A stretch of DNA of 62,706 nt from Minisyncoccota bacterium. GTDB taxonomy: Bacteria > Patescibacteriota > Minisyncoccia > JAHISW01 > Tagabacteraceae. Location: NCBI GenBank assembly GCA_028711505.1, contig JAQTSC010000004.1, positions 1 through 62,706 on the forward strand, given 5' to 3'. The notes beneath the pieces were generated by a model. The model was not told the DNA's origin. It worked only from the letters and a program-made list of their open reading frames with translations, and ran no database searches. Position 1 is the first letter of the stretch. Each line of letters begins with the position of its first letter. The translations under genes and the position numbers were made by a program. Positions 6,788 to 44,670 of this stretch are shown one piece after another.

Positions 6788-8453
6788 CCATATCCACCAC
6801 TCTCCTAACTTCATCAAATGAAGTTTCCCCTTTTAAAATTTTCAATGTCGCGTCCTGTTTCATGACCAGCATTTCTTGCCTCACGCTGGCTTCTCTTATT
6901 TCTGTTTCCGACGGATTTTTCATAACTAATTTTTCCATCTCGTCGTCTATAAGAATTCCTTCAAAAATTCCAATTCTTCCTTTGTATCCTATTCCCCCGC
7001 ATTTCTCGCATCCCGATGCCTGATAAAGCTTCGCTTTTTTTATGTCGATTTTTTCTATTTTTTTAGGTAATCCCTCCATTATTTTTGAAAGAATGGCCAA
7101 CTCTTCTTCTTTCGGTTTGTATTCTTTTTTGCAGTAAGGGCATAATTTTCTGACAAGACGCTGGGCTATTGCCAAGTTGACAGCCGGCGCGATTATATTC
7201 GGATTGGCTCCGAGTTCTATAAGCCGCGGTATGGTGCCGGCGGCATCGTTGGTGTGTATCGTGGAAAAGACCAGGTGCCCGGTTAAGGCCGCGTTTAAGG
7301 CTATCTCCGCTGCTTCCAGGTCCCTTATCTCGCCGACCATGATGACATCTGGGTCCTGCCTTAATATTGAGCGAAGCCCCGAAGAAAAATCATATCCTTT
7401 TTCCGAATTTGTCTGCGTTTGCGTGATTCCTTCAAGGTGGTATTCTATCGGTTCTTCGAGCGTTATTATCTTTATTTCCGGAGACTGGATTTCTTTTAGG
7501 AAAGCGTAAAGAGTCGTTGTTTTTCCCGAACCCGTGGGGCCAGTGGTAAGTATCATGCCGTTGGGTTTTTTGATTTGGGTTTTTATGATTTCCTGCAGGG
7601 AAGGGTCCATACCCAATTCGGCGAAATTGACGTTTATTGATTTCGGATTAAGTATTCTTAGAACCAAAGATTCTCCGTAAGGTCCCGGGAGAGCCGACGT
7701 ACGTATTTCTATTTCTTCGTTTTTTATCTTTACGGAGAAACGTCCGTCTTGAGCCTTTTCCTTTATATTGAGTTTCATCTCCGAAATCAGTTTTATCCGC
7801 GAAAGGAGTAGTTTGTACGCACGTTGATCGAATTCCAGAACGTCGTGAAGAACTCCGTCTATGCGGAATCTTATTTTTACTTCGTTTTCTTCCGGTTCTA
7901 TGTGGATATCCGAAGCGTCCGTTCCAAAAGCGCCGGCCATGAGTATTTCCAAAAGTTCAGAAATTTTTCTGTTTTCGCCGGTAGCCGTTTTTTGAAGGAA
8001 CGCCGCTTTTAAATTTTCAAGAGAATAAGCCTGGCTGAGGAATTCTTCTATCCTTTCCGGTGAAATGTCTATTATTCCTTTTGAAAGCTCTACGAACGCT
8101 GGAACTTCTTTATACCTTGACCACGCTTTCTCAAGGCTTTTGTTTGAAACCAAAAAAGGCTGAATTTCGTAATCTTCGCTAAGCTTTTTAATCCATATTT
8201 TTGCTGTTTCCAGGGTTGGGTTTTGTTCCGCCACCTGGATTTTTTTGCCGATGCCCTGAAACACCGCTATTTTGCCTTTTCTTGAATCTTGCTCCGGAAT
8301 AAGTTTGAGATAATCCAGGTCAATGGTCATTTCCGACAAGTCGGCATACGGAATCCCGTACTTTTTTGACAAAAGATTAGTGACTTCCTCTTCCTCTTTT
8401 TGACGGAGATGTTCTATTTTCAATTTTTGTTTTTCTTCGTCGAAGATAGCCAC
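6783..8453 (-). CDS. type II/IV secretion ATPase (GspE/PilB family), paralog 1
   Basis: 556 aa with Walker A GPTGSGKTTTLYA, Asp box, His box (TGHLVFSTIHTN) and C-terminal CxxC...CxxC Zn motif. Confidence 0.9.
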   Translation of the reverse strand: MAIFDEEKQKLKIEHLRQKEEEEVTNLLSKKYGIPYADLSEMTIDLDYLKLIPEQDSRKGKIAVFQGIGKKIQVAEQNPTLETAKIWIKKLSEDYEIQPFLVSNKSLEKAWSRYKEVPAFVELSKGIIDISPERIEEFLSQAYSLENLKAAFLQKTATGENRKISELLEILMAGAFGTDASDIHIEPEENEVKIRFRIDGVLHDVLEFDQRAYKLLLSRIKLISEMKLNIKEKAQDGRFSVKIKNEEIEIRTSALPGPYGESLVLRILNPKSINVNFAELGMDPSLQEIIKTQIKKPNGMILTTGPTGSGKTTTLYAFLKEIQSPEIKIITLEEPIEYHLEGITQTQTNSEKGYDFSSGLRSILRQDPDVIMVGEIRDLEAAEIALNAALTGHLVFSTIHTNDAAGTIPRLIELGANPNIIAPAVNLAIAQRLVRKLCPYCKKEYKPKEEELAILSKIMEGLPKKIEKIDIKKAKLYQASGCEKCGGIGYKGRIGIFEGILIDDEMEKLVMKNPSETEIREASVRQEMLVMKQDATLKILKGETSFDEVRRVVDME

Positions 8454-24877: not shown

Positions 24878-24949
24878 GCGCGGTTAGCTCAGTGGCAGAG
24901 CAACGCTTTTACACAGCGAAGGCCGGGGGTTCAAATCCCTCACCGCGCA
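24878..24949 (+). tRNA. tRNA-Val (anticodon TAC)
   Basis: Acceptor GCGCGGT/ACCGCGC, D-arm GCTCAGTGGCAGAGC, anticodon loop TTTACAC, T-loop TTCAAAT. Confidence 0.88.
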
Positions 24950-25307
24950 ATGAGCGAAGCGAACGGAGCGGTGAAAGAAAAGCAAACTGCTTTGCTTTTC
25001 GCCGGGATTTGAAGGCCGGAGTTATGCCGAGCAAAGCGAGGCAAACGAGGCGGGGCCGAAAAATCCGCCAATGGCGGATATTTGTGGCAAAATCCCTCAC
25101 CGCGCAATGAGCGAAGCGAACGGAGCGGTGAAAGAAAAGCAAACTGCTTTGCTTTTCGCCGGGATTTGAAGGCCGGAGTTATGCCGAGCAAAGCGAGGCA
25201 AACGAGGCGGGGCCGAAAAATCCGCCAATGGCGGATATTTGTGGCAAAATCCCTCACCGCGCAATGAGCGAAGCGAACGGAGCGGTGAAAGAAAAGCAAA
25301 CTGCTTT
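24933..25307 (+). repeat. 2.4 tandem copies of a 157-nt unit that begins with the last 17 nt of tRNA-Val
   Basis: AAATCCCTCACCGCGCA occurs at 24933, 25090 and 25247. Units 1 and 2 are identical base for base, and unit 3 breaks off at 25307. More GC-rich than the flanks, with internal hairpins. Confidence 0.95.
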
Positions 25308-39356: not shown

Positions 39357-39609
39357 GTCTTAGTCCCTCCTTTAGGCTTGCTTTCCGGATTTTTTCTTTG
39401 GCATAATTTTTGGAAGAAAAAATTTTAAGCATTTCATCTACAATTTCCTGAGCCGTTTCTTTGCTTCCTTCGCAAAAGGCCCATCCACTGTCAATACATG
39501 TTAAATGGCTTAAGTTTTTCTTGATTATACCGGCGATTTTTTTCTTCAGTTTTTTAATACCAGGCGGTTTATTTTTAATCAAAACCTCCTTTTCTCTCAA
39601 TCTTGCCAT
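39349..39609 (-). CDS. small basic hypothetical protein
   Basis: 86 aa with an AAGGAGGG Shine-Dalgarno sequence. Translationally coupled to the Cys-rich ORF. Confidence 0.55.
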   Translation of the reverse strand: MARLREKEVLIKNKPPGIKKLKKKIAGIIKKNLSHLTCIDSGWAFCEGSKETAQEIVDEMLKIFSSKNYAKEKIRKASLKEGLRHG

Positions 39610-39719
39610 ATTGCCCTCCTTTTTTAGAGGTCAAGAATTCAAAATCTGCTTTATTCTTAACATGACAGATTTTTCCGGTCAAACGAGAATTACTTAATTT
39701 TAACTTGCAATTTCCTACA

Positions 39720-39793
39720 TGGTGCGGGATGGGAGAATCGAACTCCCGCCCAGAGTTTGGAAAACTCTTATTCTGCCATTAAACTAATCCCGC
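39720..39793 (-). tRNA. tRNA-Gly (anticodon TCC), CCA encoded
   Basis: GCGGGATTAGTTTAATGGCAGAAT..., anticodon loop TTTCCAA, acceptor 3' ATCCCGC-A-CCA. Confidence 0.9.
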
Positions 39794-39990
39794 GCGTTGT
39801 TTCATGTGAACCCCCCTAGAAGTTCAATGGAATGAACCTTTATTAATTCTTATTTATTTTGACCATGGGGACAAGCTGTGAATAAATATGGAAAAAATCT
39901 GTGTTATCTTATAATACCTTTGTTTATAGTGTCCATTAGAAATGTCCGATATACACAATTTGTTCATTACTTCCTCTTCATTTTCGTTTT

Positions 39991-40168
39991 TCGCAATTGC
40001 TGAACGAAGCGCGAACCTTTTTTGAACAAAATCCTGACTGATTGCCGCGCTTCGCGCGGCAGAAACTGAACGCTCGGGCGGGCAAAAAGGAAGGGGGTTG
40101 GGGGGGGAAGGAATTTTTGCCCGCCCTCGCTTTCCGACTCCGATTTTTCCGCCGCCGCCGAATTTCGT
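39991..40168. repeat. inverted repeat A (left copy, 178 nt)
   Basis: Reverse complement of 41980-42158, checked base by base. The only difference is G8 here versus C9 in the partner. Contains hairpins GCCGCGC-TTC-GCGCGGC and GGGCGGGCAAAAA-(25 nt purine loop)-TTTTTGCCCGCCC. Confidence 0.97.
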
Positions 40169-40197
40169 GCCAACTTAGTTGGCACGCCGCCTATATT

Positions 40198-40626
40198 TCA
40201 ACTCTTGGTATTTCTAATAGAACTTTTCATTCTATAAAATTCCTCTTTGTTTTCCTGGGGCTCGTTTAATGAATTATAGTCAATTAATATTTCTTCTCCT
40301 CCCTTTATATCCTTTGCAGCATAATACCATTTATATTTTTTTTGAAACACATTTGGACTTTCGGAATGATTTATATACCAGCCAATTTCCATGTGTCCAA
40401 AATCATTTGGGCAAAGTAATTTTTCCCCTCGATCAACACAATATCCCCGAAGAATCACCGGAATTTTTTCTTTGCTAACTAAACGAGCTCTATCAACCTC
40501 GTCTTCAATTTGGTTTCCCCAGAGCCTCAAACGTGTGCCTTTTATAATATCATGAATCGTGAAAACACCGATACCATGCTTCGTTGGTTTTAACACAAAT
40601 GAAAATTCGGTAGTTTTATTCTTCAT
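40198..40626 (-). CDS. SET-domain protein (putative protein lysine methyltransferase)
   Basis: 142 aa with HGIGVFT (GxG), YINHSESPN (NHSxxPN) and GEEILIDY (ELxxDY) SET signatures. Confidence 0.75.
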   Translation of the reverse strand: MKNKTTEFSFVLKPTKHGIGVFTIHDIIKGTRLRLWGNQIEDEVDRARLVSKEKIPVILRGYCVDRGEKLLCPNDFGHMEIGWYINHSESPNVFQKKYKWYYAAKDIKGGEEILIDYNSLNEPQENKEEFYRMKSSIRNTKS

Positions 40627-40638
40627 AAGAAATTTTTA

Positions 40639-41613
40639 TTACTTTCTTTTAAATATTCCAAGCTTTGCCTCCTCCTGTTGATGATATTCAAAATAGCTAC
40701 CACCCAATACTTCACCTCGCTTTTCATTTTCTTCTTTTTCTGTGTTATTCGCTTTTTCTAATACAAAATCAAATCCAAGTCGTTCGGCCGTTTCCTTTAT
40801 TTGTTCGATAATTTTTGAATCTTTATACAGCTGGTGTGTTTCCTCGAGAGTTGTTTTTTCGGTATATTCCTCATCATATGCCTCCGGATCCATATTTTTA
40901 ACTCGCTTTTCTTCTGCTATCTCTTCCGATGTCAAATCCGAAACTTTCTTCCAGACAAACTCGTTTTCTTCAAAATCAAATTTCCCCTTCCATTTAGTTG
41001 CTTTATAAATGGAAATAGGATAAATATATGCCGCTCGATCCGTAACTCGCAATATTTCGGGCAATTCTTTTTCTAAAAATGTTTTTAAATCTAGAGAGTG
41101 TTTTGGCACCGAGTCAGAAACAATAGCCACGCTTAATGCCCTATCTTTTAGGGGAAGTTTGGCAAGATCAGCCACTATATACTTTGATTTCGCTTTTTCA
41201 ATCACCGCTTGTATAGTTTCCGTATAATCTATAAATGGATTCTCAAATCCCATATTTCTTTCAAGTTCATTGGGCAATTTTTTTGCAGGATATTTATAAA
41301 TATCATTCAATGGACCTAATTGAAATTTTCTCTTAATAACCCCGCTGTACCGGGTTTGATTGGCTTCGTGCATCAAATCAATCGGAACCACATCGATGCC
41401 TCTTAACTCACCTTCCGCAGGAATTGTGGAAAAACTGGCACCCAAATCGCCAATCGGTTTTCCGGTTTTTTTATAAATCTCAGAAAGATTTTGCCAGCTC
41501 AAATTTAGATGCGGAAAAAGCTCGAAACTGCTGTCATTGCCAAGCCATCTAAATTCTTCTTTGTTTTCTCTCTTTTCTACATATTCCGGTAACTTTTCAT
41601 AAAATTTAGGCAT
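40639..41613 (-). CDS. hypothetical protein, possibly a divergent class I SAM methyltransferase fold with an acidic C-terminal region
   Basis: 324 aa with IGDLGAS (motif I-like), VVPIDL (acidic post-I) and ADLAKLPLKDRALSVAIVSDSV (motif II/III-like). Degenerate, so a weak call. Confidence 0.35.
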   Translation of the reverse strand: MPKFYEKLPEYVEKRENKEEFRWLGNDSSFELFPHLNLSWQNLSEIYKKTGKPIGDLGASFSTIPAEGELRGIDVVPIDLMHEANQTRYSGVIKRKFQLGPLNDIYKYPAKKLPNELERNMGFENPFIDYTETIQAVIEKAKSKYIVADLAKLPLKDRALSVAIVSDSVPKHSLDLKTFLEKELPEILRVTDRAAYIYPISIYKATKWKGKFDFEENEFVWKKVSDLTSEEIAEEKRVKNMDPEAYDEEYTEKTTLEETHQLYKDSKIIEQIKETAERLGFDFVLEKANNTEKEENEKRGEVLGGSYFEYHQQEEAKLGIFKRK

Positions 41614-41617
41614 AAAT

Positions 41618-41824
41618 TTATTTTAACAATTCATCCGCCGAAACTCCAAGAGCCTTAGCTAATTTCTGAATTGTTGCAAGCGTTGGGTTTCTTTTTCCAT
41701 TTTCAATCCCGCTGATATAAGCTCGGTGAACTTCTAATTTGCGAGAGATTGCGCCCTGCGACAATTTTTTAGCGGTTCTAATCCGCTTTAGATTTTGACC
41801 AAGTTTTGTTGATATTTCGACCAT
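41618..41824 (-). CDS. XRE-family helix-turn-helix regulator
   Basis: 68 aa with LKRIRTAKKLSQGAISRKLEVHRAYISGIENGKRNPTLATIQKLAKAL. Confidence 0.85.
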   Translation of the reverse strand: MVEISTKLGQNLKRIRTAKKLSQGAISRKLEVHRAYISGIENGKRNPTLATIQKLAKALGVSADELLK

Positions 41825-41979
41825 AAGATTATTTACATTGTATCTCTTGTTGCATTATTAGGCAATGTTGTATTATAATGATACATATGAATAAGGGGAG
41901 CAAATTTGTTGTGTGCGCACGGGTGGGTGGGGCAAACACAACCCCTTTTTTCTTGGCGGCGCATTTCGCAAAGCGAAAT

Positions 41980-42158
41980 ACGAAATTCGGCGGCGGCGGA
42001 AAAATCGGAGTCGGAAAGCGAGGGCGGGCAAAAATTCCTTCCCCCCCCCAACCCCCTTCCTTTTTGCCCGCCCGAGCGTTCAGTTTCTGCCGCGCGAAGC
42101 GCGGCAATCAGTCAGGATTTTGTTCAAAAAAGGTTCGCGCTTCGTTCAGCAATTGCGA
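41980..42158. repeat. inverted repeat A' (right copy, 179 nt)
   Basis: Reverse complement of 39991-40168 with one extra C in the homopolymer (42041-42049). Confidence 0.97.
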
Positions 42159-42313
42159 CCAACTTAAACTTTTTTCAAATTCAGAAGCGTTTTGTTGCTC
42201 GCTCGCCCCGCCTTCGGCGGGTCTCGCTTCGCAAAAAGCCCTGTATTTCGGAATTAAATCGTAAGGTCGGACAAATTCAAATTCAGTTTTTCGGGAAATC
42301 AAACGGCGGTTCG
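42156..42313. repeat. inverted repeat B' (158 nt), an inverted copy of the recombinase gene 3' end
   Basis: Exact reverse complement of 43836-43993. After a 33-nt indel the repeat resumes for 14 nt (42347-42360 versus 43821-43834). Confidence 0.97.
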
Positions 42314-42466
42314 GAATTGCGAAACAATTCACAAATGAAATTTGTATCCAATTTTTTCCGTTTTTGCCAAAGGCAAAAAGACAAAGCAAGTTTTTTAATC
42401 CCGCGCTTTTGCGCCGTAGGCGCAATTGCCTAAGGTGACAATTATTAACTTAATGAGGTAAACACT

Positions 42467-44110
42467 ATGAAAATAAAATTTTTTCTCTACGCAAGGAAAT
42501 CTACCGAAGATGAAGAAAGACAAGTGATGAGCATTGAAGCACAATTAGCGGAGTTGGCGGAATTTGCCAAGCGGGAAAACATAGAAATTGCCGAAACTTT
42601 TATTGAGAGCAAAAGCGCAAAGAAACCGGGCCGAGAAATTTTTAACGAGATGATGAGCAAGGTTCACGAGAGCAAAGAGCCAATCGGCTTAATTGCGTGG
42701 CACCCCGACCGCTTGGCAAGAAATTCCGTTGACGGCGGACAAATAATTTACAGCATAGACATCGGCAAGATCGTTTCTTTGCGCTTTCCCACTTTTTGGT
42801 TTGAGCCAACTCCGCAAGGTTTGTTTATGCTTCAAGTCGCCTTTGGCCAGTCAAAATATTATTCCGACAATTTGTCGGAAAATGTTAAGCGCGGGATTAG
42901 GCAAAAACTCAGGCGGGGCGAATGGCCGACACTTGCGCCGTTCGGCTATGTGAATAATCCAAAGACGAGAACCATTGAACCCGAACCGACAAAATCAAGG
43001 TGTGTTACCAAAGCGTTTGAGGAATTCGCGCAAGGCCGGCATACTTTAGAATCTTTAGGCCAACGCCTGAGTTTTTGGGGCGTGGTGAGCGGAACCGGAA
43101 AACCACTTTGTAAAGCGACACTCCAACGAATGCTGACAAACAAAGTGTATCTCGGTTTAATCGTTCATAACGGCGAAACTTATGAGGGCGGTTTTCCGGC
43201 AATTGTTTCCCGAGCGACTTTTGAAGCCGTCCAAAAAGTATTAAAACAGCGAGCAAGACCTCGCAAAAGCAAAAAACGGCATAACTTCCCATTTGTCGGA
43301 CTTTTAACTTGTGGCGAGTGTGGTGGAGCCATTACCGCGCAATTTGCCCACGGACACGGAGGAACCTATCGCTATTATCGTTGCACCAAAAAGCTCGGTA
43401 AATGTTCGCAACGATATTTGCGCGAGGACTTGCTCGCTGAACAATTAAAATTACGGCTTCAAAATGTCGCTCTTTGCGACGACTGGGCGGAGAAGATGAA
43501 AACTCAAGTTGATGTTTGGGAAAAAGATAACGCCCAGTCATCGCAATCTTTTGCCCAAAATCTTGAGGAAAAAATCAAAGAAACGGAAACGAAACTTGAT
43601 AAACTGGTCAACGCTTTCTTGGACGGCTCTATTGAAAAAGAAACTTACCTTGTCAAAAAAGACGAACTCATCAAAACAAAAACAGACCTTAACAAAAGAA
43701 AATCTGATTTTGGGCGAAAGGGAAACAATTGGATTGAACCTTTGCGGGAATGGATAAAGACTGCTCACCACGCCGAAAAACTTGCTTTGTCCAATGATTT
43801 TTATGAAATAAAATCATTGGCGGAAAAAATTGGAACGAACCGCCGTTTGATTTCCCGAAAAACTGAATTTGAATTTGTCCGACCTTACGATTTAATTCCG
43901 AAATACAGGGCTTTTTGCGAAGCGAGACCCGCCGAAGGCGGGGCGAGCGAGCAACAAAACGCTTCTGAATTTGAAAAAAGTTTAAGTTGGTCGGGGCGCC
44001 GAGACTTGAACTCGGACTACAACCTCCCAAAGGTCGCGTGCTGCCATTACACTACGCCCCGATTATGGCGCCACCATCATCCAGCTGGCCCGTTTCATAT
44101 GAAACGCTAA
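42467..44110 (+). CDS. large serine recombinase (true C-terminus uncertain; last ~39 codons read through tRNA-Pro)
   Basis: YARKSTEDEERQVMSIEAQ catalytic-Ser N-terminus, recombinase domain, Zn ribbon CGECGG...YYRCTKKLGKC, coiled coil, and a TGAGGT Shine-Dalgarno sequence. The ORF stays open through repeat B and the antisense of tRNA-Pro. Confidence 0.85.
   Translation: MKIKFFLYARKSTEDEERQVMSIEAQLAELAEFAKRENIEIAETFIESKSAKKPGREIFNEMMSKVHESKEPIGLIAWHPDRLARNSVDGGQIIYSIDIGKIVSLRFPTFWFEPTPQGLFMLQVAFGQSKYYSDNLSENVKRGIRQKLRRGEWPTLAPFGYVNNPKTRTIEPEPTKSRCVTKAFEEFAQGRHTLESLGQRLSFWGVVSGTGKPLCKATLQRMLTNKVYLGLIVHNGETYEGGFPAIVSRATFEAVQKVLKQRARPRKSKKRHNFPFVGLLTCGECGGAITAQFAHGHGGTYRYYRCTKKLGKCSQRYLREDLLAEQLKLRLQNVALCDDWAEKMKTQVDVWEKDNAQSSQSFAQNLEEKIKETETKLDKLVNAFLDGSIEKETYLVKKDELIKTKTDLNKRKSDFGRKGNNWIEPLREWIKTAHHAEKLALSNDFYEIKSLAEKIGTNRRLISRKTEFEFVRPYDLIPKYRAFCEARPAEGGASEQQNASEFEKSLSWSGRRDLNSDYNLPKVACCHYTTPRLWRHHHPAGPFHMKR
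43836..43993. repeat. inverted repeat B (158 nt)
   Basis: See B'. Its last 3 nt (TCG) are the discriminator plus the last two acceptor bases of tRNA-Pro (minus strand). Confidence 0.97.
43991..44061 (-). tRNA. tRNA-Pro (anticodon TGG)
   Basis: CGGGGCGTAGTGTAATGGCAGCAC..., anticodon loop TTTGGGA, T-loop TTCAAGT, acceptor 3' CGCCCCG-A. Confidence 0.88.
44091..44106. repeat. 16-bp perfect palindrome CGTTTCATATGAAACG
   Basis: Read directly. Lies between the cobA-like stop and tRNA-Pro. Confidence 0.9.
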
Positions 44111-44670
44111 AATTCAATTCCCTTTCTCGCTAAAATTCCTTTTTTGAAAGGGTGCTTTTTGTTTTCAAAAAAAGTAATGTAATCAGCTTTAGAAAAAATT
44201 TTTTTGTTCGCTTTTCTCCCTGTTAAAACAAGTTCGGTCCTATCAGACTTGTCTTTTATAATGTCCAATATCTTTTGGACATTTACAAGACCCATAAATT
44301 CGCTAACGCATATTTCATCCAAAACCACCAAGTCATATTTTCCCGAACAAACCACTTTTTTAGCTTCTTTCGTTGCTTTTTCAGCTTCTTTTTTATCAAT
44401 TTCTTTTGCCTCCCCTTTTCTTATAAACTCCAGTTTCCCGAATTGCTTGATGTCTATTTTACCCAGTTTTTTCAAGGATTTTATTTCTCCGTAAGGGTAT
44501 TTCCCTTTCATAAACTGAATTAAACAGCATTTTAAGTCTTGTCCGGCCGCTCTTGTTAAAAGGCCTATTCCGGCGCTTGTTTTGCCCTTTCCGTCTCCGG
44601 TGTAGACATGAACAAGTCCTGTTTTGGTTTTTGCGTTTTTCCAAGCGGGTCTTTGTTTCATGTGAACCAT
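44107..44670 (-). CDS. cob(I)yrinic acid a,c-diamide adenosyltransferase-like (CobA/BtuR family) P-loop protein
   Basis: 187 aa with VYTGDGKGKTSAGIGLLTRAAG...IQFMKG...YGE pattern. Start overlaps the yraN stop (TAATG). Confidence 0.7.
   Translation of the reverse strand: MVHMKQRPAWKNAKTKTGLVHVYTGDGKGKTSAGIGLLTRAAGQDLKCCLIQFMKGKYPYGEIKSLKKLGKIDIKQFGKLEFIRKGEAKEIDKKEAEKATKEAKKVVCSGKYDLVVLDEICVSEFMGLVNVQKILDIIKDKSDRTELVLTGRKANKKIFSKADYITFFENKKHPFKKGILARKGIEF

What the first reader, a model, noticed from the sequence alone, without database searches (positions are those of the whole stretch)
39991..43993. Large serine recombinase embedded in two abutting modules bounded by 178/179-nt and 158-nt near-perfect inverted repeats
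Checked base by base, 39991-40168 (A) is the reverse complement of 41980-42158 (A') apart from one homopolymer base. Likewise 42156-42313 (B') is the exact reverse complement of 43836-43993 (B). A/A' enclose a 1.8-kb minus-strand cassette (XRE HTH, methyltransferase-like protein, SET-domain protein) together with its promoter region. B'/B enclose the promoter and body of a >500-aa serine recombinase, and B itself is the 3' end of that gene. A' and B' touch with a 3-nt overlap, so the layout is A-cargo-A'B'-recombinase-B-tRNA-Pro. The repeats are far more GC-rich than their surroundings and are densely packed with hairpins. Recombination sites of known invertase switches are tens of bp long. 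Two adjacent segments each framed by >150 nt of essentially identical inverted sequence and sharing one composite centre is not an arrangement I can match to a described system. I see three hypotheses. First, a double DNA-inversion device. Second, an integrated element carrying an inverted copy of its own attP junction. Third, a palindromic misassembly of a heterogeneous population.
Basis: partly seen in the sequence, partly recalled or inferred. Interest (0 to 1): 0.9.

Follow-up and report, generated by a model that had tools for sequence, protein, structure and literature searches.

The report
Integrase island carrying mirrored spare attP
A 4-kb mobile island sits at the end of a proline tRNA gene and carries a mirror-image spare copy of its own attachment site between its regulator gene and its recombinase gene; this layout is real, is conserved in well over a hundred related elements from uncultured bacteria, and I found no description of it, but what the spare copy is for is not known.

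Summary
A/A' are 178/179 nt with a single G-run indel. B'/B are 158 nt and identical. It is not a misassembly. The same layout, A-cargo-A'B'-recombinase-B-tRNA, recurs in about 30 independent genome and metagenome loci, including nanopore assemblies. A B'/B-type repeat brackets the recombinase gene in most of 166 relatives.

The thing is a 4.0-kb integrative element driven by a large serine recombinase (LSR). It is inserted at nucleotides 72-73 of tRNA-Pro. A and B are the two halves of the element's attP region, split by integration: attL = host|A, attR = B|tRNA. A'B' is a second, intact, inverted copy of that roughly 335-nt attP region. It lies between the divergent XRE-regulator and LSR genes.

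The two arms of one element are kept alike (median 99.3%), while different elements differ (68%). Contigs exist with the tRNA on the promoter side of the LSR gene, with attP on both sides, and with a tRNA on both sides.

Hypothesis 3 is refuted. Hypothesis 1 (an inversion device) is plausible but unproven. The function of the spare attP is inferred, not shown. The excised circle would resemble the yeast 2-micron plasmid in architecture. I rate it a new variant of a known kind.

The parts
39720..39793 (-). tRNA-Gly(tcc). This is the host gene left of the element; about 197 nt of host spacer separates it from attL.
   Evidence: ARAGORN; Rfam tRNA, 66.6 bits.
39991..39993 (.). attL core TCG (host flank | A). 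The crossover is probably at TC.
   Evidence: The three-junction comparison shows attL, internal attP and attR share only TCG in the window. The choice of TC over CG is an inference: positions 2-3 would be palindromic in the Pro and Arg lineages.
39991..40168 (+). Repeat A (178 nt), the outer copy. It is the P' side of the attP region, now the element's left end. Positions 39994-40031 are the half-site conserved across lineages. Positions 40076-40126 form a GC-stem hairpin with a G-rich loop.
   Evidence: repeat; conserved 38 nt, nnTTnCTGAACGAAGCnCGAACCTTnTTnGA; the hairpin recurs in many lineages.
40198..40626 (-). Cargo: SET-domain protein (142 aa).
   Evidence: Pfam PF00856, E = 1e-9.
40639..41613 (-). 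Cargo: 324-aa protein of unknown family.
   Evidence: No significant family match in Pfam, NCBIfam or PADLOC; the only hit is a chance-level Pfam match (Mistic, E 0.044, below cutoff).
41618..41824 (-). XRE-family HTH regulator (68 aa), similar to R-M controller (C) proteins. It is a conserved core gene of the element family and is always divergent from the recombinase gene across the internal repeat.
   Evidence: Pfam HTH_3, 2.7e-19. PADLOC Control_protein, 4.5e-18. Found in the same position and strand in 34 related loci.
41837..41865 (-). Promoter-like site for the XRE/cargo operon (TTGCCT-17-TACAAT), in the 155-nt unique spacer.
   Evidence: Consensus scan. This is a pattern match only.
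41963..41979 (.). Palindrome ATTTCGC-AAA-GCGAAAT, abutting the inner edge of A'. It is a candidate operator.
   Evidence: Read in the sequence. The same motif sits at the same place in L003, L011, L110, L083 and others. The operator function is inferred.
41980..42158 (-). Repeat A' (179 nt), the inner copy of A. It is the P' side of the intact internal attP.
42156..42158 (.). Core (CGA) of the intact internal attP, inverted relative to attL and attR.
42156..42313 (-). Repeat B' (158 nt), the inner copy of B. It is the P side of the internal attP and a non-coding mirror of the last 52 codons of the recombinase gene.
   Evidence: Present in most relatives.
42314..42466 (+). Unique 153-nt recombinase promoter/leader region with several short palindromes.
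   Evidence: The promoter was not located by the scan.
42467..44110 (+). Large serine recombinase ORF (547 aa as read). The family-conserved sequence ends at W508-S509 (TGG TCG = CCA + discriminator + G72 on the other strand). The last 38 codons are read-through of tRNA-Pro.
   Evidence: Pfam domains. The 20-sequence alignment shows conservation up to WS and then tRNA-derived tails. Closest solved structure is SPbeta SprA, E = 1e-9.
43836..43993 (+). Repeat B (158 nt), the outer copy. It is the P side of the attP region, the 3' end of the recombinase gene and the element's right end. It supplies the CCA of tRNA-Pro.
43991..43993 (.). attR core TCG (B | tRNA body).
43988..44061 (-). tRNA-Pro(tgg), the integration target (attB, tRNA side).
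   Evidence: A tRNA 3' end abuts the recombinase gene in 118 of 166 related copies.

Best explanation
Positions 39991-43993 are an integrated 4.0-kb mobile element. Its only mobility gene is a large serine recombinase (LSR). The element's attachment region (attP) is about 335 nt long. Its core (TCG, probable crossover at TC) sits inside the last codons of the LSR gene. Integration exchanged this core with nucleotides 72-73 of tRNA-Pro. That split one attP copy into the element's two ends: A at the left (attL = host|A) and B at the right (attR = B|tRNA). B also supplies the tRNA's CCA. The element holds a second, complete, inverted copy of the same region (A'B'), placed between the divergently transcribed XRE-regulator/cargo operon and the LSR gene. 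This is why the integrated form reads A-cargo-A'B'-LSR-B. The excised form would be a circle of two unique segments separated by two inverted 335-nt repeats, each centred on an attP. That is the architecture of the yeast 2-micron plasmid.

Shown: the att logic, the conservation of the layout, the homogenisation of the two copies within each element, and the existence of contigs with the tRNA on either side of the LSR module, or with attP on both sides.

Inferred: (a) both attP copies are functional, so the circle can insert through either one. The common form is the window's. The rarer form has the tRNA next to the LSR promoter and leaves the LSR reading frame with its native 16-codon tail. 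(b) The long perfect arms are kept identical by gene conversion or flip-flop recombination between the copies. An inverted orientation is the only stable way to carry a duplicated site, because direct copies would delete a segment. (c) The integrated element therefore always keeps one live attP, which can still react with another free tRNA site.

I put about 45% on (a)-(c) as the reason the spare copy is maintained. The structural identification itself I hold at about 90%.
For: The repeats are exact. The LSR domains are present. All homologues are conserved up to ...WS and then continue as the translated reverse complement of a tRNA 3' end, or as ...WSQLLNEARTFFE, which is the A arm. In the window and 17 other double-repeat loci, the three junctions fit attL/attP/attR with a 3-9 nt common core. 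The internal attP with the conserved A-arm half-site is present upstream of the LSR in 84 copies, and a tRNA lies downstream in 118 of 166. The A-arm CGAAC motif lies 5 nt further from the core than the tRNA T-loop GAAC does in attR. This is the offset known for P-type versus B-type LSR half-sites (the knowledge of LSR half-sites comes from the A118/LI integrase literature, from memory).

The architecture is found in long-read assemblies (L033, L067, L070) and in MEGAHIT, SPAdes and JGI assemblies from many phyla. Arms within one element are 99.3% identical (median), against 67.9% between elements. The two copies in one Bacteroidales genome are 90% alike, yet each has 100% identical arms. Identity is anchored at the core.

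Alternative states occur in contigs whose arms are distinguishable. L079 has tRNA|B'-LSR-B|A (longest identical run 44 nt). L085 has attP on both sides (62 nt). L032 has a different tRNA-Pro gene on each side (28 nt). L041 and L056 are MEGAHIT contigs that pass from the tRNA through B' into the LSR start.
Against: No empty attB site was recovered for the window's own host, so its boundaries rest on internal consistency and on 17 parallel cases. No reads were available, so neither a circle nor orientation heterogeneity has been seen in one population. Canonical LSRs recombine only attP with attB and need a directionality factor to excise. No such factor is recognisable here, and the smallest elements (cargo 1.1-1.7 kb) leave little room for one. 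An att site needs only about 50 bp, so the 92-435-nt arms are not explained by site function alone. The integrated forms are heavily skewed to one arrangement: about 61 clear cases versus 7 with the tRNA upstream. This is unexpected if both attP copies were used equally. L091 and L092 have lost the internal core and persist. L032 could be an old remnant rather than proof of a live internal site.
Confidence: 0.7

Rival explanations
1. Programmed inversion switch. The LSR (or RecA) flips the B'-LSR-B module and/or the A-cargo-A' module. This toggles the recombinase gene between convergent with the tRNA gene (quiet, stable) and co-directional with it and with the XRE operon (read-through, active). 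The switch would control excision.
For: The LSR is co-directional with XRE and cargo in L083, L084/L119 and L104, and the cargo is flipped in L133, against 34 divergent cases. The tRNA lies on the promoter side in 7 copies. The scan found no intrinsic terminator between the tRNA end and the LSR start. Perfect inverted repeats of 158-178 nt are substrates for homologous recombination (established knowledge).
Against: Every contig that strictly requires an inversion has near-identical arms (longest identical runs 88-273 nt). Such contigs could arise from wrong traversal of a collapsed repeat. The robust alternative states (L079, L085) are also explained by use of the second attP without any inversion. 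The LSR keeps its own promoter inside the module in both orientations. Long-read assemblies show only the common orientation.
Confidence: 0.25
2. Cis-acting accessory site. The internal attP is not a crossover partner but binds LSR dimers. It would act as a decoy or operator for autoregulation. Alternatively it would bridge attL and attR so that excision can occur without a directionality factor (a three-site synapse, as enhancers do for Hin/Gin).
For: The site is intact and conserved between the two promoters in 84 copies. No directionality-factor candidate is recognisable, and some elements carry only one cargo gene. attP-type junctions downstream of the gene are common: 27 of 120 homologues. 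That suggests excision does happen.
Against: The core lies about 310-330 nt from either start codon and about 290 nt from the predicted XRE promoter, so it is too far for simple steric repression. No LSR is known to use a third site. This reading does not explain arms far longer than a binding site. There is no direct test.
Confidence: 0.15
3. RNA-level device. Transcripts crossing the element form 158-bp and 178-bp perfect stems (A:A' and B':B), like the RNase III processing stems that flank rRNAs. These would insulate the element or destroy read-through transcripts.
For: The geometry resembles rRNA processing stems. The host tRNA genes and the cargo are on the same strand.
Against: Differences between arms show no wobble bias. 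In 59 pairs there were 138 differences: 31 G·U-compatible on one strand, 35 on the other, 57 transversions and 15 indels. Rfam finds nothing but the tRNAs. Folding z-scores are unremarkable.
Confidence: 0.05
4. Copy-number amplification of the excised circle by inversion during replication, as Flp does for the 2-micron plasmid.
For: The architecture is identical in outline: two unique segments, inverted repeats with the recombination site in the middle, and the recombinase gene in one segment.
Against: No replication gene or origin is recognisable in a 4-kb element. The family is absent from plasmid and phage collections. LSRs are not known to recombine attP with attP.
Confidence: 0.04
5. Assembly artefact (a palindromic chimera), or a functionless static duplication.
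For: Perfect inverted repeats in a metagenome-derived sequence are a classic warning sign. Most related contigs break at B' or B.
Against: The same double-repeat layout occurs in about 30 independent loci, including nanopore assemblies. Many have imperfect arms, e.g. 96% in L001 and 91% in L079, which assemblers cannot create by collapse. The layout is conserved down to 56% LSR identity and across 13 or more tRNA targets, with concerted evolution of the arms. That argues against a neutral accident.
Confidence: 0.02

Closest known systems
Large-serine-recombinase integrative elements and prophages (phiC31, Bxb1, A118/LI, SPbeta SprA)
   Same: The domain architecture is the same (Resolvase, Recombinase, zinc ribbon, coiled-coil region). 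The closest solved structure is SPbeta SprA. There is a short crossover core, hybrid attL/attR sites, and a 5-nt outward shift of the outer motif in the element-side half-site.
   Different: The target is the 3' end of tRNA genes, read through the T-loop region. The attP core lies inside the recombinase ORF. The whole attP region is duplicated in inverted orientation inside the element. No directionality factor is recognisable. The elements are only 3-12 kb, with no phage or conjugation genes.
Yeast 2-micron plasmid (Flp/FRT) and its relatives
   Same: Two unique segments are separated by a pair of long inverted repeats. The recombination site lies in the middle of each repeat and the recombinase gene lies in one segment. 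The repeat sequence is not conserved between lineages but the architecture is. (The 2-micron plasmid features are from memory; the element side is.)
   Different: The recombinase is a serine enzyme, not a tyrosine one. The host is bacterial. The element is seen mainly integrated in a chromosome. There are no replication or partition genes. Recombination between the two copies has not been demonstrated.
SSV1-type integrases of archaeal viruses (attP inside the integrase gene)
   Same: The attachment core lies within the recombinase reading frame, so integration changes the gene. The target is a tRNA gene. (The SSV1 features are from memory.)
   Different: Here only the last 16 codons are exchanged, not the gene split in two. 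The enzyme is a serine recombinase. A spare intact copy of the site is retained.
Serine DNA invertase switches (Hin, Gin, Cin, Pin)
   Same: Inverted repeats bracket a DNA segment next to or containing a serine recombinase gene. Phage P1's C segment also has long (about 0.6 kb) inverted repeats (from memory).
   Different: Invertases are about 190 aa with a C-terminal HTH, use 26-bp sites and need a Fis-bound enhancer. Here the enzyme is a roughly 510-aa LSR, the repeats contain full att sites, and one arm is the junction with a tRNA gene.
Tycheposons and other tRNA-targeting genomic islands
   Same: They are small cargo- or defence-carrying islands at tRNA genes, and a minority use LSRs (bioRxiv 10.1101/2020.12.28.424599). 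Cargo here includes R-M-like and HepT/MNT modules in relatives.
   Different: That paper's text shows no inverted duplication of the attachment region. Most of those elements use tyrosine integrases and many carry replication genes.

Membership tests
Large serine recombinase (integrase) family | N-terminal resolvase catalytic domain with the catalytic serine, followed by a recombinase domain and a zinc-ribbon domain with an inserted coiled coil. | tested here: met
   PF00239 6e-22, PF07508 6e-13, PF13408 5e-11. The YARKS motif is invariant in 20 homologues. The sequence aligns to SPbeta SprA over residues 7-416, including the coiled-coil region.
LSR-type integrative element (attP x attB -> attL + attR) | The element ends are hybrids of an element site and a host site, joined at a short common core. 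| tested here: met
   The three-junction comparison holds in the window and 17 other loci. The B|A junction is seen free-standing in other contigs.
LSR-type integrative element (attP x attB -> attL + attR) | An unoccupied attB exists in related genomes. | not tested
LSR-type integrative element (attP x attB -> attL + attR) | A recombination directionality factor for excision. | tested here: inconclusive
   None is recognisable. The only conserved partner gene is an XRE/C-protein-like HTH. Directionality factors are too diverse to exclude by sequence.
Serine DNA invertase switch (Hin/Gin/Cin/Pin) | A small (about 190 aa) recombinase with a C-terminal HTH, 26-bp crossover sites and an enhancer. 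| tested here: not met
   The enzyme has about 510 conserved residues with LSR domains. The repeats are 158-179 nt and contain att-type half-sites.
Serine DNA invertase switch (Hin/Gin/Cin/Pin) | Both orientations of the segment coexist in a population. | not testable with these tools
   No reads are available. Among relatives both orientations occur, but several cases could be assembly artefacts.
2-micron-type inverted-repeat plasmid | A pair of inverted repeats, each holding the recombinase target, dividing a circle into two unique segments. | tested here: met
   This follows from attL + attR = the B|A junction plus the internal A'B'. Contigs exist with attP on both sides of the LSR module (L085, L086, L149).
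2-micron-type inverted-repeat plasmid | Autonomous replication and partition functions. | tested here: not met
   No replication or partition gene was found in the window's element or in relatives' cargo. There are no relatives in the plasmid collection above 28% identity.
Assembly artefact | The structure is unique to one assembly and the arms are necessarily identical. | tested here: not met
   The structure recurs in GTDB MAGs, JGI and ENA metagenomes and nanopore MAGs, with arm identities from 81 to 100%.
Structured RNA family (Rfam) | A match to a curated covariance model within A or B. | tested here: not met
   Only the two tRNAs match, at E <= 1, in 39500-44400.

The most novel reading that the evidence does not exclude
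The spare attP is a live, selected part of the recombination machinery, and this LSR family breaks the 'attP reacts only with attB' rule. On this reading the enzyme recombines the two inverted attP copies, which would make this a bacterial, serine-recombinase counterpart of the 2-micron flip system with up to four integrated isomers. Alternatively or additionally, it uses the internal site as a third partner, so that excision needs no directionality factor. The internal site could also capture a second tRNA gene and so invert or rearrange the host chromosome, as L032 suggests.
Probability: 0.25. Interest if true: 0.85.

Novelty: new variant of a known kind. Interest (0 to 1): 0.7.

Why it matters
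LSRs are valued in genome engineering because they are simple and strictly directional. This is a very large natural family: thousands of homologues, 70-95% identical across Patescibacteria, Omnitrophota, Planctomycetes, Bacteroidota and others. Three things make it notable.

1. It targets the universally conserved 3' end and T-loop region of tRNA genes.
2. Its attachment core sits inside its own reading frame.
3. It always keeps a second, mirrored attP.

This suggests a rule of element design that has not been described. It may point to a way of regulating or reversing LSR reactions without a separate directionality factor.

There are practical consequences too. The repeats break short-read assemblies at these loci. 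Gene callers report recombinases with spurious C-terminal tails translated from tRNA genes. The elements also look like a main vehicle for small defence cargo (R-M-like and toxin-antitoxin modules) in genome-reduced, uncultured bacteria that lack plasmids and conjugation systems.

Tried and rejected
- **Rfam on both strands of 39500-44400:** only the tRNAs matched.
- **RNA-stem hypothesis:** arm-to-arm differences show no G·U bias.
- **Promoters or terminators inside the arms:** none found by the consensus scan, and terminator counts equal the shuffled expectation.
- **Folding of A, B and the two unique spacers:** hairpins are present but z-scores are modest, and my DNA/RNA parameter switching in that script was unreliable, so I did not use it.
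- **Phage or plasmid vehicle:** only 2 truncated hits in 2.9 million viral contigs, and nothing above 28% identity in plasmids.
- **Locating the crossover inside the arms from L079 vs L080:** there was only one informative position, so this was not decisive.
- **Identity gradient along the arms:** it is anchored at the core but confounded by the mixture of arm lengths.
- **Empty site for the window's host:** close LSR relatives sit in different hosts.
- **Two readings considered and dropped.** One was a nested or tandem double insertion: L064 turned out to be two separate elements at adjacent tRNA genes. The other was a dyad axis at the GCAATTGC palindrome: that palindrome is not conserved in other lineages, and it is incompatible with the attR junction.
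- **Single-strand folding model (CTXphi-like duplex attP from the two stems):** considered, but an LSR double-strand exchange on such a substrate would leave a hairpin-capped broken chromosome, so I did not pursue it.

Full report
**1.

A gapped alignment of 39991-40168 with the reverse complement of 41980-42158 gives 178 vs 179 nt, no mismatch and one extra G in a G run. The segments 42156-42313 and 43836-43993 are exact reverse complements over 158 nt. They are the only inverted repeats of 45 nt or more in the window. A' and B' overlap by CGA (42156-42158).

tRNA-Pro(tgg) lies at 43988-44061 on the minus strand and tRNA-Gly(tcc) at 39720-39793.
- a 547-aa ORF with Resolvase, Recombinase and Zn_ribbon_recom domains at 42467-44110;
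- a 68-aa XRE HTH protein;
- a SET-domain protein.

The 324-aa 'methyltransferase-like' protein matches no family in Pfam, NCBIfam or PADLOC. A is clearly GC-rich (57%). B is only slightly so.

**2. It is not an assembly artefact**

The recombinase has thousands of homologues. The best 120 are 68-95% identical. I fetched 165 related loci from GTDB genomes and from JGI/ENA metagenomes.

An inverted repeat brackets the recombinase gene in most of them. It is 92-193 nt long, and one arm ends at a tRNA gene. The full double layout (A, cargo, A' abutting B', recombinase, B, tRNA) recurs in about 30 loci. One is the 640-kb nanopore contig L033. Two copies in one 6.2-Mb nanopore contig (L067, L070) each have 148-nt arms at 100%.

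Arm identity ranges from 81 to 100%, for example 96% in L001. Repeat collapse cannot produce imperfect arms. Most short-read contigs simply end at B' or B, as expected for a repeat longer than the k-mer.

**3. What the repeats are**

All homologues are conserved up to ...W-S. After that they diverge in one of two ways. Some continue into strings such as GRRDLNS or GCRDSNP, which are the translated reverse complement of a tRNA 3' end (TGG = CCA). Others continue into ...QLLNEARTFFE..., which is the translation of the A arm. The window's minus-strand reading of B' into A' gives the same ...SLSWSQLLNEARTFFEQNPD.

In the window and 17 other double-repeat loci the three junctions follow one rule:
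- the left end is host|A;
- the right end is B|tRNA;
- the internal junction is the reverse complement of B|A.

All three share a core of 3-9 nt (TCG in the window: 39991-39993, 42156-42158 inverted, 43991-43993). This is the signature of conservative site-specific integration: attP = B|A, attB = host flank|tRNA, attL = host|A, attR = B|tRNA.

The core corresponds to G72-A73 of the tRNA plus one more base. The reconstructed attB is ...CGCCCCGA|AAAACGAAAATG, and the element supplies the CCA. The crossover dinucleotide is probably the first two bases (TC). The alternative would be palindromic in the Pro and Arg lineages. This is inference.

The first ~38 nt of A are conserved across lineages (nnTTnCTGAACGAAGCnCGAACCTTnTTnGA). 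The CGAAC motif lies 5 nt further from the core than the T-loop-derived GAAC does in the tRNA half of attR. That matches the known P-type versus B-type half-site offset of large serine recombinases (knowledge from memory).

Targets are mostly tRNA-Pro, but also Gln, Met, Arg, Phe, Asp, Trp, His, Leu, Lys, Ala, Ser and Ile.

So A and B are the two halves of one attP region split by integration. A'B' is a second, intact, inverted copy of the whole region.

**4. The conserved core of the family**

An XRE-type HTH gene sits immediately beyond A', divergent from the recombinase, in 34 loci. Its best PADLOC match is the controller (C) protein of R-M systems.

Cargo between XRE and A varies:
- SET plus an unknown protein in the window;
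- N6_N4 methylase plus a ResIII helicase/nuclease, SNF2 plus N6_Mtase/Eco57I, or HepT/MNT in relatives.

The A arms beyond the half-site are not conserved in sequence. They carry one of two large hairpin types. One has a GC stem with a loop GGAAGGGGGTTGGGGGGAAGG, whose loop is inverted (C-rich) in some lineages. A palindrome ATTTCGC-AAA-GCGAAAT sits at the inner edge of A' in many lineages.

The family is essentially absent from viral contigs and plasmids.

**5. Dynamics**

Arms within one element are far more alike (median 99.3%) than the B arms of different elements (median 67.9%; 54 loci). Identity is anchored at the core: 0.99 over the first 40 nt. The differences between arms are unbiased with respect to G·U wobble and include many transversions and indels. 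Identity is therefore kept by DNA-level homogenisation, not by selection for an RNA stem.

I tallied the junction types on the two sides of 166 recombinase copies:

| Upstream / downstream of the recombinase | Copies |
|---|---|
| attP-type upstream / tRNA downstream (the window's form) | 61 |
| Partial views compatible with the window's form | 71 |
| tRNA upstream | 7 |
| attP-type on both sides | 3 |
| attP-type downstream, upstream missing | 10 |

About 27 of the 120 best homologues carry the attP-type tail.

**6. A caveat I consider important**

Where the arms are perfect and longer than the k-mer, an assembler can leave a collapsed repeat by the wrong exit. That would manufacture exactly these 'isomers'. 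I therefore checked the longest identical run between arms.

Robust cases:
- L079: tRNA-Pro|B'-LSR-B|A arm, longest identical run 44 nt. Its close relative L080 has the opposite arrangement.
- L085: attP on both sides, 62 nt.
- L032: tRNA-Pro(ggg) on one side and tRNA-Pro(cgg) on the other, 28 nt.
- L041 and L056: MEGAHIT contigs that run from host DNA through the tRNA and B' into the LSR start.

Not robust:
- L083, L084 and L104 (LSR co-directional with XRE);
- L133 (cargo flipped; its LSR is 97% identical to the window's);
- L088 and L095 (tRNA upstream; 97% and 95% identical);
- L149 (273-nt perfect repeat across the core).

The robust set needs only two things: excision to a circle, and insertion through either of the two attP copies. 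A true inversion of one module relative to the other is suggested only by the non-robust set.

L032 is the product expected if the internal attP of an integrated element recombined with a second tRNA-Pro gene. Its outer arm halves have diverged, so it is old and could have another history.

**7. How it most likely works**

*Shown.* This is an LSR integrative element at tRNA-Pro. Its attP core lies inside the LSR reading frame. Its attP region is duplicated in inverted orientation between the XRE and LSR promoters.

*Inferred.*
- The excised form is a 4.0-kb circle with two unique segments and two inverted ~335-nt repeats, each centred on an attP. That is the 2-micron plasmid architecture.
- Either copy can be used for insertion. 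Insertion through the copy at the 3' ends gives the window's form, and the LSR then acquires a tail read from the tRNA. Insertion through the promoter-side copy puts the tRNA next to the LSR promoter and leaves the native 16-codon tail.
- Whichever copy is used, one intact attP stays inside the integrated element.
- Inverted orientation is the only stable way to hold a duplicated site, because direct copies would delete a segment.
- The arms longer than a ~50-bp site are best explained by gene-conversion tracts spreading from the core, as in other inverted-repeat replicons.
- Arms of this size will also flip at some rate by homologous recombination.

*Not established.* I cannot say what advantage the spare attP gives. 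My ranking is:
1. a second functional attP that keeps the integrated element recombination-competent;
2. an orientation switch for LSR expression;
3. a cis-acting accessory site for regulation or for excision without a directionality factor.

Simple steric autoregulation is unlikely, because the core is about 300 nt from either promoter region.

**8. Comparison with what is known, and novelty**

The enzyme and the att logic place the element among LSR integrative elements. Four things differ: tRNA 3'-end targeting by an LSR, the core inside the gene, the universal inverted duplication of the attP region, and the absence of a recognisable directionality factor.

Eight full-text searches found no description of such an arrangement. 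The tycheposon paper, which includes LSR elements at tRNA genes, does not mention it.

I class it as a new variant of a known kind. It is of real interest to people who study mobile elements and LSR mechanism. The main open question is what the spare attP does, and that can be tested directly with a handful of plasmid assays and one long-read data set.

Noticed in passing
window 24933-25307: A perfect 157-nt tandem repeat (2.4 copies) starts inside the 3' end of tRNA-Val (24878-24949). Each unit begins with the last 17 nt of the tRNA (AAATCCCTCACCGCGCA). It could be remnants of repeated integration at tRNA-Val or an assembly expansion.
   Followed up: partly
window 40076-40126 (and its mirror in 42022-42072); L003, L011, L024, L025, L027, L037, L045, L049, L060, L064, L110, L132, L142; inverted loop in L066, L076, L114, L150, L156, L158: The A arms of many lineages carry a 13-bp GC/A5 stem with a ~25-nt loop GGAAGGGGGTTGGGGGGAAGG (G-quadruplex-like, telomere-like T2G4 motif). 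In some lineages the loop is the C-rich complement, as if the loop itself had flipped. Other lineages, including ones with 94-97% identical LSRs, have a different AT-rich 18-bp-stem hairpin instead. The function is unknown.
   Followed up: partly
window 41963-41979: The palindrome ATTTCGC-AAA-GCGAAAT lies exactly at the inner boundary of A', on the XRE side. The same motif is found at the same place in several lineages. It is a candidate XRE operator.
   Followed up: partly
L032 941-2936: A recombinase module is flanked by two different proline tRNA genes in inverted orientation: tRNA-Pro(ggg)(+)|B'-LSR-B|tRNA-Pro(cgg)(-). This is the product expected if an internal attP recombined with a second tRNA gene and inverted the chromosome between them. 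The outer halves of the arms have diverged.
   Followed up: partly
L091 6861-11574 and L092 80-4793: These close relatives (92% LSR identity) have lost A' and the outer 58 nt of B', i.e. the internal attP core. They keep only a 99-nt inner repeat. They are natural deletion variants that could serve as controls.
   Followed up: no
L064 5900-11600: Two independent elements of the family sit at adjacent tRNA-Ser and tRNA-Ala genes. Each has its own B'/B repeat and internal attP. ARAGORN missed the tRNA-Ser, which I read by eye at about 8027-8118.
   Followed up: yes
window 43994-44110 and homologues P0001-P0120: Gene callers extend these recombinases through the tRNA gene. Database entries therefore carry spurious C-terminal tails (…WSGRRDLNS…, …WSGCRDSNP…) that are translations of tRNA reverse complements. 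About 22% instead end in the attP-encoded …WSQLLNEARTFFE tail.
   Followed up: yes
L003-L165 (record titles): Recombinases 70-95% identical are reported from MAGs assigned to Patescibacteria, Omnitrophota, Planctomycetia, Gammaproteobacteria, Ignavibacteria, Atribacterota, Bacteroidota and Actinomycetes. This implies either recent cross-phylum transfer or frequent mis-binning of these short, repeat-bounded contigs.
   Followed up: no
window 42108-42425 (-): A 105-aa ORF on the minus strand exists only because B' mirrors the recombinase C-terminus. Its last 68 residues equal the circle-form LSR tail. It is likely not a gene but will be called as one.
   Followed up: partly
window 40639-41613 (-): The 324-aa cargo protein has no match in Pfam, NCBIfam or PADLOC. 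A GDLGASFS stretch faintly recalls a SAM-binding motif, but nothing supports a methyltransferase call.
   Followed up: partly
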